A stretch of DNA of 9,540 nucleotides from a virus (lineage: Duplodnaviria; Heunggongvirae; Uroviricota; Caudoviricetes). The position numbers were made by a program. Each line of letters opens with the position of its first letter. The stretch's first letter is position 1. The DNA is taken from IMG/VR virus record IMGVR_UViG_2537562192_000011; one strand, written 5' to 3'. This document shows positions 3,001 to 6,000 of this stretch, in pieces.

Positions 3001-6000
3001 CGCGCCGACCCGCCCCGTGGACAGCCCCCCCCCACCAGGAGTACCTACAAAAAAGCCGGATTGCTCCGGCTTCTGTCACTCGTTGCTTAAAACGGTATGT
3101 TATCCCCGTACGGATCATCATTCCCCGCCTGTTGTTTTGCCCTGTTCAGTGCGTCAGTAGCCTGCCCCTGCTGGCCTTTTTTACCGCCCGGTCGCGCCGT
3201 TCTCGCACTGATTACGCTGTCTGCGATAACCTGCCAGCCCTGCCGCGTTTCGCCGTTCTGGCCTGTCCACTGGCTTACCTGCATGTTACCCGCCACGCTC
3301 ACCAGCTCGCCTTTGCGGTGTTTTGCCAGTGCGTCGGCCTGTCTGCCAAACGCCAGGACGGATAACCACATCGTCGCCGTTCCGTCATCAGCCTGGCTGC
3401 ATGTCAGGGGAACCGCCATACTCGCCATCGTCATTTGTGTGCCCTTGCTGGTGGTCTTTAACTGTGGGTCAGCCACCAGCCGCCCGTAAGCCGCTATCTG
3501 TGCTGTCATGATTCCACCTCTACGTTTTTAACGTTGATGGTTGTCACCTGTTCAGCTTCCGCAATCTCCCGCTCTGTCAGCGTGGCAAAATTTGCCGCCG
3601 TCGTGGTCATGAATGCGCTTATCAGTTCGGGATGTGCTTTCGCGTATCCTTCCCCCGCGTGGCGGTCTATCGTTCTGATTGCCACCTTTAAAGCGTGCTC
3701 TGTCATGTCTAACGCGCGATATTTCGGTTCTGTTCTGTCTCTGCGTTTTTTGAGTGATTTATTAAATTTCCCTGAAGTGTGCATATTTATTTTTACCCCC
3801 TCGTTTAAAAAGTTTTGAGTTGTGCCTCCCCTTGTCTACCTTATCTACCTTAGTGGCCCTCATGCCAGTAATGGCGCGGCTTTCAGCGGGGTAGAGTGCT
3901 TTTATCCGCTATCTACCCCGTGTCTACCTCCCTGTCTGATTCAGGTAAAATCAGGTAGAGAGGGTAGATAGTGGGTAGACAGTAAAAAAAGGCTATCTAC
4001 CTAACTTAATGCACTGAATTAAATGTATCTTTCTTTACTCAGGTAGACAGGGTAGACAGCAATTACAAAAAATTATAAAAACGCGTCGCACTCGTCTGTT
4101 GTTATTGCGTTAGTCTGCGTTACTCCCTTAACTTTCCGCGTAATATATTCATGTCCGTAAACTTTCGCGGCTGGCTTCATAGCCTTGCCAAAGTCATTTA
4201 CGTTTAGCGGTTTGCTCCTGCCTGCGTACGCCATAAACGCCAGATAGACGCGGTAAAGGCTGTTTCTGGTCGTGTACTTCACTGAATCGCCACCGCCGCC
4301 CATCATCAGGCCGCGTGCTTCCTCCAGAAAATTCAGGAACTGGCAAAACTCAATAACCGGATCCGTCTGTTGCTTTATTGCCAGAGCTTCATCACCGTCA
4401 CGCTGTTCCAGTAGTAAAGCCCGTGCTTTCTCAGAGTCGGTAAAGTTCGCCAGCAATCGGCGGATAATGACAGGGATTTCAGCCGCAATCTTTTCCGGTA
4501 GCTCCCTGTCTTTTTCGGCCTCACTGACGATATTGTCGAAACGGAAAATCACGCGACGACGTGCCACACCTCCGGCCCGTTCGGTGAATATCATCGGGTT
4601 GTTGTTGGTCGCCAGCACCACCGCCCTGATTACCGCCGTAAAACGCTTTTCATATTTCGGGTTAATTTCCACGGGGTCACCGCCCGTGATTTTCTTGATG
4701 CCCGTTCCTTCGCCTGTATATTTCGGCTGGTCAGCCAGGACGATAAGGCGACTCCCGACAACCTGCGCACGTCCACCAGCATCATCAAGCGATGTCATTT
4801 CAGCGCTTACCGTGTTCTGTTTCCCTGCCAGAAGGCTGGCTATGTGTGTGAATGTACTTTTACCGCTCCCGCCGTCTCCGGTGGCCTCAATAAACATCTG
4901 CCAGTCGTACCGGTTCGCCATAATCATGTACAGCGCGGCACATATCCGCATCATCTTGCGCGGGTCTTTTCCGGCTGCGTGCTCAAGCCATTTATGAAAG
5001 TTTGGCGCGTTATCGCGGATGTTCTCCCCTGGTGCTGGTGGCGTGTACTCAATACCGTTGTGCGTGGTGATCCAGTTCTCCGGCGTGTGCGGGGAAAATT
5101 CCCCCGTTTTCAGGTCAAGCGCACCATTGGCAAACGGCAGCAAATCGCCGGACGGCTCGCCCATTGGTTCGGCAATAACTTTTAACGCTTCCACGGCGTT
5201 ATTGATTACGCGCTTGCTGAAAGTGGCCCTGTGCTCTGAATAGATCGCCACCATTTCGCGGCTAAGTTCCATTGTGCTGACCGGACACCATACCCCGCCG
5301 CGCCATACGTGAACGATTTCACTTTCAGGATGCACGCAAACGCCATCAAATCGTCCGGCAAGAAGTTGAGCGCGCTCACTGTCCGCCATCTGCGAAAGTT
5401 GCGCCTTTTGCTTTACAGGAAGCTCAATAACCAGCCCATCAGAAAGATTCTGGCGCTCACTGGCCAGATATTCGCGCCAGTTCTCCACCTTCTGACCGTG
5501 CATACCATCAGGGTAAAAATTTGCATCCTGTACGCCTGCCGCCGCCAGCTTCTGACCAATCGCCTTTATCATTACTGGCGCAAGATATCCGGCCCTGAAT
5601 ATGCGCACGGATTTTCTGCCTTCCGGCACAATTTGCAGCTTATCCAGTTCTGATAACTGCTGCTCCCCAAGCCACACAGGAGGCTCATTATCTCCGGCCA
5701 TACGCGCGTCATGTTCCTGCCATTGTTTCGCGTGTGACCAGGCATCACTACCCGCAAAAATAATGACTTCTGTTTCTTTGTGTTTTATGCCGCGTGGCTG
5801 CTGTTTTACGTTCGGTGCCAGTTTCATTTTTTGCCCCTGAATCCGTTAATCATGTTTTTCATCTTCTGAATATTGGCGCGTGCTTTCTCCCTGCTGGTGG
5901 GCACGTTACGCGGTACTGCCTGCACAAGAGAAAAATCACGCCGGAACTGATAAACAGGCATCACGCAATCATATTCGTAACCTTCACGGCGGTAAGTTAC

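What the first reader, a model, noticed from the sequence alone, without database searches (positions are those of the whole stretch)
3834..4058. Iteron array with bidirectional copies around an AT-rich core, immediately 3' of the primase-helicase gene
About 11 copies of RTCTACC / GGTAGAC, many at 9-11-bp phasing, flank an AT-rich stretch (about 4000-4040). The layout resembles the P4 ori/crr arrangement relative to its alpha gene but uses a different repeat word, consistent with a distinct replicon specificity.
Basis: partly seen in the sequence, partly recalled or inferred. Interest (0 to 1): 0.5.

Follow-up and report, generated by a model that had tools for sequence, protein, structure and literature searches.

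The report
Known PICI satellite replication origin
The repeat cluster is real. It is the replication origin of an E. coli phage-satellite island (a PICI), almost identical to the EcCICFT073 origin that was published and plasmid-tested in 2018, so it is a correct call but not a new discovery.

Summary
Observation confirmed. GGTAGA/TCTACC occurs 12 times in the 9.5-kb window against about 2 expected, and 11 copies lie in 3835-4056. That stretch is the 288-bp gap immediately 3' of the minus-strand 584-aa 'primase family' gene (4073-5827). A 40-bp, 75% AT spacer (4002-4041) separates the two gene-proximal copies from the other nine.

Across 11 E. coli variants the hexamer columns are 93% identical and the other intergenic columns 75%.

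The window is a roughly 10-kb island at tRNA-Pro/yejM. Its Pri-Rep protein is 577/584 identical to EcCICFT073 Pri-Rep, and its repeat region is 97% identical with all 11 hexamers kept. Fillol-Salom et al. 2018 (PMC6092414) described this origin type: iteron sets flanking an AT-rich region, 3' of pri-rep. In their thermosensitive-plasmid test, colony formation at the restrictive temperature depended on both pri-rep and ori.

The protein's C-terminus is homologous to the P4 alpha origin-binding domain (PDB 1KA8). Relatives keep the same site layout but use other words, and the word tracks the C-terminal domain better than the helicase core.

The P4 analogy holds mechanistically, but this is not a P4 origin: the word differs, the P4 primase domain is absent and there is no separate crr.

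Verdict: interpretation supported, already known, low interest.

The parts
4073..5827 (-). pri-rep gene: 584-aa initiator-helicase with D5_N, DUF5906 (SF3 helicase) and Pox_D5 domains
   Evidence: Pfam hits. TIGR01613. 577/584 identical to EcCICFT073 Pri-Rep. Aa 141-579 are 40% identical to P4 alpha aa 324-762. Helicase core matches the SaPI5 PriRep structure 7OLA at E=4e-15.
4091..4366 (-). Codons for aa 488-579: C-terminal domain homologous to the P4 alpha origin-binding winged-helix domain, the inferred iteron reader
   Evidence: phmmer hit to PDB 1KA8 at E=7e-7. Identity in this domain predicts the iteron word better than identity in the helicase core (AUC 0.82 against 0.67).
4042..4056 (+). 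Gene-proximal iteron pair, GGTAGA at 4042 and 4051 (9-bp spacing)
   Evidence: Invariant in all 11 E. coli variants. Contained in the published EcCICFT073 primer pri-4c.
4002..4041 (.). AT-rich spacer (75% AT), the presumed DNA-unwinding element
   Evidence: Composition and nearest-neighbour stability. Its AT-richness is kept while its sequence drifts in relatives (38-50 bp, 69-87% AT in most GGTAGA-type loci). It corresponds to the AT-rich gap in the P4 ori.
3996..4001 (-). Single inverted iteron (TCTACC on the + strand)
   Evidence: Occupies the same position as the single inverted type-1 repeat in the P4 ori (9353).
3944..3979 (+). Iteron triplet GGTAGA at 3954, 3963 and 3974, preceded by a degenerate GGTAAA at 3944
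   Evidence: 3954 and 3963 are conserved. 3974 is replaced by an opposite-strand copy in some variants.
3912..3928 (-). Iteron pair TCTACC at 3912 and 3923 (11-bp spacing), mirror of the triplet
3890..3895 (+). Single iteron GGTAGA, mirror of 3996
   Evidence: Invariant in 11 of 11 variants.
3850..3889 (.). Distal 40-bp spacer (40% AT) holding the conserved box 3866-3885, CAGTAATGGCGCGGCTTTCA; function unknown
   Evidence: 18 of 20 box positions are invariant in 11 E. coli variants. An AAAGCC core recurs at this position in other genera. No conserved hairpin was found.
3835..3849 (-). Distal iteron pair TCTACC at 3835 and 3844 (9-bp spacing), inverted copy of the proximal pair
   Evidence: Inverted repeat I1, 3833-3854 against 4037-4058.
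3803..3816 (-). Invariant AAAACTTTTTAAAC (minus strand), 24 nt (start to start) past the last iteron, in the leader of the next gene; ori accessory or expression signal, unresolved
   Evidence: Invariant run. An A4+CT4+ motif lies 15-25 nt after the last iteron in 11 of 40 related loci, against about 0.001 expected per locus.
3506..3784 (-). 92-aa conserved hypothetical gene (phrog_1231) directly downstream of the ori, part of the conserved replication module
   Evidence: Present next to the ori in all 10 divergent E. coli loci.
3087..3509 (-). Single-stranded DNA-binding protein gene, usually part of the same module
   Evidence: Pfam SSB at E=1.4e-16. Present in 8 of 10 divergent loci.

Best explanation
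Window 3834-4058 is the replication origin (ori) of a phage-inducible chromosomal island (PICI) of the EcCICFT073 replicon type.

Inferred mechanism:
1. The island's Pri-Rep protein (4073-5827, minus strand) reads the (R)GGTAGA words through its C-terminal winged-helix domain.
2. It assembles as SF3-helicase hexamers on the two mirror-image site sets. Each set has two or three direct copies, then one inverted copy, then a ~40-bp gap, then two direct copies.
3. It melts the 75% AT gap at 4002-4041 and unwinds outward. The island can then amplify after excision, when a helper phage induces it.

What is shown: the repeat statistics, their conservation, the homologies, and near-identity with an origin that was plasmid-tested by others. 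What is inferred: the binding, melting and loading steps, taken from P4 alpha and SaPI Rep biochemistry. Who makes the primers is open, because the protein lacks the P4 primase domain.
For: - Enrichment and clustering: 12 GGTAGA against 2.0 expected, 11 of them within 222 bp.
- Purifying selection on the words: hexamer columns are 93% identical (53 of 66 invariant) against 75% (64 of 222) for other intergenic columns, in 11 E. coli variants that are 74-100% identical overall.
- Linkage to the replication module only. The capsid, decoration, terS and PerC modules differ among loci, while DUF4222, pri-rep, the array and the small ORF stay together. The gene's 3' end is found in 574 genomes and the gene/array junction in 563.
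- Identity with a tested origin. Pri-Rep is 577/584 identical and the ori region 97% identical to EcCICFT073, with all 11 hexamers kept. The published deletion primer contains GGTAGACAGGGTAGACAG.
- Published description. The paper reports iteron sets flanking an AT-rich region 3' of pri-rep. At the restrictive temperature its thermosensitive pri-ori plasmid gave colonies; the rep mutant gave none and ori deletion significantly reduced the number (PMC6092414).
- Reader domain. Aa 488-579 match the P4 alpha origin-binding domain 1KA8. SaPI Reps bind their iterons through a C-terminal winged-helix domain and self-load (PMC9371898).
- Covariation. Homologues in other genera keep the orientation pattern --+---++-++ but use at least 10 word classes: GGTGAAC, ATGAACAC, GGTATAC, GGTAGG, AGTGAC, CGGACAGT, GTGGACA, CAGTGC, CTTCCA and GGTAGA itself. 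Among pairs with helicase identity of 0.55-0.70, C-terminal identity is 0.56 for same-word pairs and 0.42 for different-word pairs. vB_KppS-Ant uses P4's own word and has a C-terminus closer to P4 (0.51) than the window protein has (0.32).
- The gene-proximal half (3954-4057) reproduces the order of sites in the annotated P4 ori: 3 direct, 1 inverted, AT gap, 2 direct.
Against: - No binding, melting or replication assay exists for this exact sequence. The functional evidence is borrowed from a 97%-identical allele.
- In the published plasmid test, ori deletion 'significantly reduced' colony numbers rather than abolishing them.
- Word and C-terminal domain do not map one-to-one. L032 and L071 use GGTAGAC with a P4-like C-terminus. 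L018 and L019 differ in word with only 4 C-terminal substitutions.
- The AT-rich gap is among the least stable stretches of the window but is not the single least stable one.
- The second gap is GC-rich and carries a conserved box that this model does not explain.
- No primase domain was found in the protein.
Confidence: 0.9

Rival explanations
1. The array is a crr-like auxiliary site, required in cis or used for copy control or handcuffing by Pri-Rep. It would not be the place where DNA is opened, just as the element 3' of P4 alpha is crr and not ori.
For: In P4 the iteron cluster immediately 3' of alpha is crr, and ori lies about 4.5 kb away. Deleting the ori of the EcCICFT073 plasmid reduced colony numbers but is not reported to have abolished them.
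Against: Only one GGTAGA lies outside the array in the whole window (at 2687), which is chance level. The window covers the island except the integrase 5' end and the att sites, so there is no second cluster to serve as ori. The array contains the P4-ori-type order of sites with an AT-rich gap.
Confidence: 0.05
2. The repeats are operators for a transcription factor of the island or of the helper phage. That factor would control the downstream operon (92-aa gene, ssb, capsid genes).
For: The array lies 5' of the next gene on the same strand. An invariant AAAACTTTTTAAAC and a strong ribosome-binding site follow it.
Against: No sigma-70-like promoter or terminator was found on the minus strand in 3650-4200. 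The word covaries with the C-terminal domain of the upstream helicase, not with the variable downstream genes. The same site layout occurs in the P4 ori.
Confidence: 0.03
3. The repeats are a packaging signal: small-terminase binding sites of a cos or pac region.
For: Packaging sites such as cosB contain repeated protein-binding sites. PICIs of this group are packaged through cos sites (PMC6092414).
Against: There is no lambda-type cosN near the array. The only match with 2 mismatches lies inside pri-rep and is at chance level. The array is linked to pri-rep in loci both with and without terS, and with different capsid modules.
Confidence: 0.02

Closest known systems
EcCICFT073-type origin of Gram-negative PICIs (Fillol-Salom et al. 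2018, ISME J, PMC6092414)
   Same: Position immediately 3' of pri-rep. Iteron sets on both sides of an AT-rich region. Pri-Rep 99% identical and ori 97% identical, with all 11 GGTAGA copies kept. Same island design: int, small HTH regulator, unidirectional genes, about 10 kb. The island sits at the yejM attC site that the paper lists for EcCIED1a.1, EcCI11128 and EcCIATCC25922.
   Different: It is carried by a different island. It sits at tRNA-Pro/yejM rather than beside roxA-phoQ, and it has a ClpP-capsid fusion gene instead of capsid plus decoration genes. There are 10 substitutions in the 331-bp region compared, none of them in a hexamer.
Satellite phage P4 ori and crr with the alpha protein
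   Same: Short words in both orientations with AT-rich gaps of about 35-45 bp. One cluster (crr) lies immediately 3' of the initiator gene. The P4 ori order of sites (3 direct, 1 inverted, AT gap, 2 direct) equals window 3954-4057. Helicase plus C-terminal origin-binding domain are homologous (40% over 440 aa; 1KA8 hit).
   Different: The word is GGTAGA, not TGTTCACC/GGTGAACA. There is one cluster instead of a bipartite ori plus crr. The window array is two mirror-image units. The protein lacks alpha's N-terminal primase part (aa 1-323) and has an unrelated 140-aa N-terminus.
SaPI (Gram-positive PICI) ori and Rep / Pri-Rep
   Same: Six to twelve 5-6-nt iterons directly downstream of rep, split by an AT-rich region, with copies pointing in opposite directions on each side. 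Rep is an SF3 self-loading helicase with a C-terminal winged-helix reader (PMC9371898). The helicase core is homologous (7OLA, E=4e-15).
   Different: Only the helicase core aligns. The words and lineage differ, and in SaPIs the AT-rich region is roughly central.
Plasmid iteron origins (RepA/pi/TrfA class: pSC101, F, P1, R6K, RK2) - comparison from general knowledge
   Same: Repeated initiator-binding sites next to an AT-rich unwinding element.
   Different: Those use 17-22-bp direct repeats, DnaA boxes and a WH1-WH2 Rep that recruits DnaB. Here the words are 6-9 bp in both orientations, no DnaA box lies in or near the array, and the initiator is itself a helicase.

Membership tests
Gram-negative PICI ori (EcCICFT073 type) | Lies immediately 3' of the pri-rep gene | tested here: met
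   The nearest iteron ends 16 nt from the stop codon of the 584-aa gene.
Gram-negative PICI ori (EcCICFT073 type) | [quoted passage not shown] | tested here: met
   2 copies lie on the gene side and 9 on the far side of the 75% AT spacer 4002-4041.
Gram-negative PICI ori (EcCICFT073 type) | Cognate Pri-Rep protein of the PICI allele families | tested here: met
   577/584 identical to EcCICFT073 Pri-Rep.
Gram-negative PICI ori (EcCICFT073 type) | Sequence homology to a published PICI ori | tested here: met
   97% identity over 331 bp. The published primer pri-4c matches the window at about 4025-4082.
Gram-negative PICI ori (EcCICFT073 type) | PICI context: integrase, AlpA-type regulator, unidirectional operon, PICI-specific attC, about 10 kb | tested here: met
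   The island is bounded by a 16-bp direct repeat, lies at tRNA-Pro/yejM and spans about 10.1 kb. The yejM attC site is listed in the paper's Table S1. The HTH protein's AlpA hit is weak (17.8 bits against a cut-off of 21), so that one item is only suggestive.
Gram-negative PICI ori (EcCICFT073 type) | Supports Pri-Rep-dependent autonomous replication | not testable with these tools
   Tested for the 97%-identical EcCICFT073 allele with plasmids pJP2027, pJP2028 and pJP2029 (PMC6092414). Not tested for this sequence.
P4 ori/crr replicon | Type-1 iteron TGTTCACC | tested here: not met
   The window word is GGTAGA. P4's annotated repeats read TGTTCACC.
P4 ori/crr replicon | Bipartite origin: ori plus a distant crr | tested here: not met
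   There is a single cluster. Only one stray hexamer lies elsewhere in the window.
P4 ori/crr replicon | Alpha protein with an N-terminal primase, an SF3 helicase and a C-terminal origin-binding domain | tested here: not met
   The helicase and C-terminal domain are homologous. Alpha aa 1-323 have no counterpart, and no primase domain was found.
P4 ori/crr replicon | Order of sites in the ori core: 3 direct, 1 inverted, AT-rich gap, 2 direct | tested here: met
   Window sites at 3954, 3963, 3974 | 3996 | gap | 4042, 4051. P4 sites at 9310, 9320, 9331 | 9353 | gap | 9396, 9406.
SaPI ori | Penta- or hexanucleotide iterons downstream of rep, at least two on each side of an AT-rich region and pointing in opposite directions | tested here: met
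   Layout shown. Definition taken from PMC9371898. This is likeness of design, not common sequence.
SaPI ori | Rep homologous over its full length to SaPI Rep proteins | tested here: not met
   Only aa 195-432 align to 7OLA.
Plasmid RepA-type iteron origin | 17-22-bp tandem direct repeats plus DnaA box(es) | tested here: not met
   The words are 6-9 bp and lie in both orientations. No DnaA box lies in 3785-4072; the nearest is at 7906, at chance level.

The most novel reading that the evidence does not exclude
The published picture is 'iterons plus an AT-rich region'. Origins of the P4-alpha/PICI Pri-Rep family may in addition share a fixed 11-site grammar and two further conserved cis elements.

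- The grammar is two mirror-image P4-ori-like units, with orientation pattern --+---++-++. It is kept across at least three different iteron words and about 40% protein identity.
- The first extra element is the GC-rich AAAGCC-type box in the distal gap (window 3866-3885).
- The second is an A4CT4-5 motif 15-25 nt past the last iteron (window 3803-3816).

These elements would point to an additional, unidentified factor or priming signal at these origins. Natural near-isogenic pairs with different words (L018/L019; L032 against vB_KppS-Ant) could map the specificity residues to the C-terminal wing segment.
Probability: 0.35. Interest if true: 0.35.

Novelty: already known. Interest (0 to 1): 0.15.

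Why it matters
It shows that a reader working from raw sequence alone can correctly call a satellite replication origin. RefSeq leaves the site unannotated: the array-only search lists no feature under the match.

Biologically it adds little. The replicon is the EcCICFT073 one, whose pri-rep/ori dependence was already shown.

The comparative by-products may be of modest use for engineering or typing satellite replicons and for predicting incompatibility or specificity groups:
- a conserved 11-site layout shared with P4-type elements;
- at least 10 iteron words that track the initiator's C-terminal domain;
- a conserved non-iteron box.

Tried and rejected
- Conserved hairpin in the distal spacer: RNAalifold on 21 spacer sequences gave no consensus pairs. 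The box is therefore treated as a sequence motif of unknown role.
- Fold of the Pri-Rep N-terminus (aa 1-145): the single-sequence AlphaFold model reached only pLDDT 63, and Foldseek against the PDB gave nothing below E=0.1. No conclusion on a primase or Toprim-like fold. I ran no further search on this side question.
- Promoter and terminator scan of 3650-4200: nothing on the coding (minus) strand, and one chance-level + strand match.
- Lambda-type cosN search: only a chance-level match inside pri-rep.
- DnaA boxes: none in the array.
- Exact published att string TTTGTAGTTATACG: not found. The island's 16-bp flanking repeat, AAACGTATAACTAAAA, differs from its reverse complement by one base.
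- Strict one-to-one mapping of word to C-terminal cluster: rejected because of the L032/L071 and L018/L019 exceptions.
- The iteron sequences drawn in Fig. 2a of PMC6092414 could not be read, because figures are not held. The link to that figure rests on the CFT073 genome sequence and a supplementary primer.
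Full report
**The observation**

The window carries 12 copies of GGTAGA/TCTACC against 2.0 expected, and 0 of 200 shuffles reach 12. Eleven copies lie between 3835 and 4056. The other two read GGTAGAG, and all eleven fit RGGTAGA.

Five copies read TCTACC on the + strand (3835, 3844, 3912, 3923, 3996). Six read GGTAGA (3890, 3954, 3963, 3974, 4042, 4051). A degenerate GGTAAA lies at 3944. Adjacent same-orientation copies are 9 or 11 bp apart.

The whole array is an imperfect palindrome about position ~3945. It fills the 288-bp gap between the stop codon of a 584-aa minus-strand gene (4073-5827) and the start of a 92-aa gene (3506-3784).

The stretch 4002-4041 is 75% AT and among the least stable 1.2% of 40-mers in the window. 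It separates the two gene-proximal copies from the other nine, so it is a flank-side gap and not a central core.

**What the locus is**

The window matches E. coli 2012EL-2448 exactly. It is the body of a roughly 10-kb island inserted next to tRNA-Pro/yejM and bounded by a 16-bp direct repeat.

All island genes read on the minus strand:
- integrase;
- a small HTH protein with weak AlpA similarity;
- an Icd-like protein and several small ORFs;
- DUF4222;
- the 584-aa protein;
- the repeat array;
- the 92-aa ORF;
- SSB;
- a ClpP-protease/capsid fusion.

The 584-aa protein has D5_N, DUF5906 (SF3 helicase) and Pox_D5 domains. Its core matches the SaPI5 PriRep structure 7OLA at E=4e-15. Its last ~90 residues match the crystal structure of the P4 alpha origin-binding domain, 1KA8, at E=7e-7.

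Against P4 alpha it aligns from aa 141-579 to alpha 324-762 at 40% identity. It therefore lacks alpha's primase part and has an unrelated 140-aa N-terminus with no recognisable family. A single-sequence structure model was too weak to classify that N-terminus.

**Selection on the repeats**

The junction region occurs in 563 of 5426 complete E. coli genomes at 74-100% identity. The 3' end of the gene alone occurs in 574. Gene and array therefore travel together in about 98% of cases.

Ten divergent copies were fetched. They share DUF4222, the helicase gene, the array and the small ORF, usually with SSB. Their structural and packaging modules differ: capsid plus decoration protein, HK97 protease plus capsid, small terminase, PerC or ProQ.

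In the alignment of the eleven intergenic regions, hexamer columns are 93% identical (53 of 66 invariant). The remaining intergenic columns are 75% identical (64 of 222 invariant).

**Identification with a published, tested origin**

Fillol-Salom et al. 2018 (PMC6092414) defined Gram-negative PICIs. [quoted passage not shown]

They cloned the EcCICFT073 rep-ori segment into a thermosensitive plasmid. [quoted passage not shown]

Their supplementary primer EcoCFT073-pri-4c contains GGTAGACAGGGTAGACAG followed by the end of the pri gene, and it nearly matches window 4025-4082. I fetched EcCICFT073 from the CFT073 chromosome. Its Pri-Rep is 577/584 identical to the window protein. Its 3' intergenic region is 97% identical, with all eleven hexamers intact.

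The yejM attachment site is also one the paper lists for other E. coli PICIs. The feature is therefore the known PICI origin, carried here by an island with a different attachment site and capsid module.

**Relation to P4**

The P4 GenBank record annotates crr immediately 3' of alpha and ori about 4.5 kb away. Both are built from the type-1 octamer TGTTCACC.

The P4 ori core reads three direct copies, one inverted copy, a 34-bp AT-rich gap, then two direct copies. Window 3954-4057 has exactly this order with similar spacings. Window 3834-3928 is its mirror image, with two clear copies in place of three. The PICI origin therefore looks like two inverted P4-ori-like units.

Membership fails on three counts: the word, the bipartite ori/crr design and the primase domain.

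An induced satellite, vB_KppS-Ant, encodes a 41%-identical protein. The 260 bp after its gene carry eleven copies of GGTGAAC, which is P4's word. Their orientation order (--+---++-++) is identical to the window's. Its C-terminal domain is 51% identical to P4's, against 32% for the window protein.

A scan of one genome per species gave 80 loci. In those with a clear array within 450 bp after the gene (40 loci with at least 7 copies, counting the window, vB_KppS-Ant and P4 crr), the words seen were:
- GGTAGA (Shigella, Rosenbergiella, Xenorhabdus, Symbiopectobacterium, Yersinia, Raoultella);
- GGTGAAC;
- ATGAACAC;
- GGTATAC;
- GGTAGG;
- AGTGAC;
- CGGACAGT;
- GTGGACA;
- CAGTGC;
- CTTCCA.

Identity in the C-terminal domain predicts a shared word better than identity in the helicase core (AUC 0.82 against 0.67). 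Among pairs with helicase identity between 0.55 and 0.70, same-word pairs share 56% of C-terminal residues and different-word pairs 42%.

There are exceptions. L032 and L071 use GGTAGAC with a P4-like C-terminus that carries a 5-residue insertion before a conserved (S/T)N motif. L018 and L019 differ in word with only four C-terminal substitutions. Specificity probably rests on a few residues. A large Xenorhabdus/Photorhabdus group of alpha-length proteins shows only 3-6 copies of any word downstream.

**Mechanism**

By homology with P4 alpha and SaPI Rep (PMC9371898), the most likely course runs as follows:
1. The Pri-Rep C-terminal domains bind the words.
2. Hexamers assemble on the mirror-image site sets.
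3. The AT-rich gap is melted.
4. The helicase self-loads, with the neighbouring SSB gene supplying strand coating.

Every one of these steps is inference for this sequence. Priming is unresolved.

**Rivals**

- A crr-like auxiliary role is unlikely because there is no second cluster in the island.
- An operator role finds no promoter on the coding strand and does not explain the covariation with the upstream protein.
- A packaging role finds no cosN, and the array does not follow the packaging modules.

**Left unexplained**

- The distal gap (3850-3889) is GC-rich and holds a box, 3866-3885, that is invariant at 18 of 20 positions in E. coli. Its AAAGCC core recurs in other genera, and no conserved hairpin was found.
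- An A4CT4-5 motif lies 15-25 nt past the last iteron in 11 of 40 loci of three word classes, and between the two P4 crr units.

**Verdict**

The feature is already known and has been tested experimentally in a near-identical allele. Interest is low.

Noticed in passing
window 3866-3885 (within spacer 3850-3889): Box CAGTAATGGCGCGGCTTTCA inside the origin's second, GC-rich gap. It is not an iteron. 18 of 20 positions are invariant in 11 E. coli variants, and an AAAGCC core recurs at the same place in Xenorhabdus, Rosenbergiella, Symbiopectobacterium and Raoultella origins. In GGTGAAC-type origins this gap is AT-rich instead. No conserved hairpin was found and the function is unknown.
   Followed up: partly
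window 3803-3816 (minus strand AAAACTTTTTAAAC): Invariant A4CT5 motif 24 nt (start to start) past the last iteron. An A4+CT4+ motif lies 15-25 nt after the last iteron in 11 of 40 related loci of three iteron classes, and between the two crr units of P4. Chance expectation is about 0.001 per locus. It could be an origin accessory site or an expression signal for the next gene.
   Followed up: partly
window 5408-5827 (minus strand; aa 1-140 of the 584-aa protein): The protein annotated as 'DNA primase family' has no detectable primase domain. P4 alpha residues 1-323 have no counterpart. The N-terminus hits only PHROGs (phrog_864, annotated 'DNA primase', over the whole protein; phrog_2850, function unknown, over aa 1-129). 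Short proteins (about 584-630 aa) share this N-terminus, while long ones (about 770-870 aa) have other N-termini. The source of primers for island replication is open.
   Followed up: partly
L018 (Pseudocitrobacter faecalis) and L019 (Escherichia sp. ESNIH1), 450 bp after the gene: The two Pri-Rep proteins differ by 17 substitutions in 626 aa. Four are in the C-terminal domain (M508L, I522V, N567T, M570V in window numbering). Their origins are nevertheless dominated by different words, GGTATACAC against ATGAACAC. This may be a natural specificity switch, or the protein may read a looser word.
   Followed up: partly
L032 (Escherichia ruysiae) and L071 (Kluyvera georgiana): These origins use GGTAGAC, like the window. 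Their C-terminal domains are 71-77% identical to those of GGTGAAC users and only 31-34% identical to the window protein. They carry a 5-residue insertion (GPDKG) before the conserved (S/T)N motif. This may be convergent acquisition of the same word.
   Followed up: partly
L039-L073 (Xenorhabdus/Photorhabdus loci with proteins of about 810 aa): P4-alpha-length homologues show only 3-6 copies of any hexamer (for example CTATACATC) in the 450 bp after the gene. Their main origin may lie elsewhere, as in P4.
   Followed up: no
window 540-2429 (minus strand): A single 629-aa ORF fuses a ClpP-like prohead protease to a major capsid protein. Sister islands with the same replicon instead carry capsid plus decoration protein, HK97 protease plus capsid, or small-terminase modules. 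The replication module is shuffled among different morphogenesis modules.
   Followed up: partly
window 2687-2692: This is the only GGTAGA outside the array, in the AT-rich gap upstream of the 75-aa ORF. A single copy is within chance expectation, and its conservation was not examined.
   Followed up: no
window 7754-7960 (minus strand): The 68-aa HTH protein, the presumed AlpA-type activator of the island, reaches only 17.8 bits on Pfam Phage_AlpA against a cut-off of 21.
   Followed up: no
L001 7998-8013 and 18082-18097 (outside the window): A 16-bp direct repeat, AAACGTATAACTAAAA, bounds the island next to tRNA-Pro/yejM. It differs by one base from the reverse complement of the att sequence published for the yejM PICIs.
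   Followed up: partly
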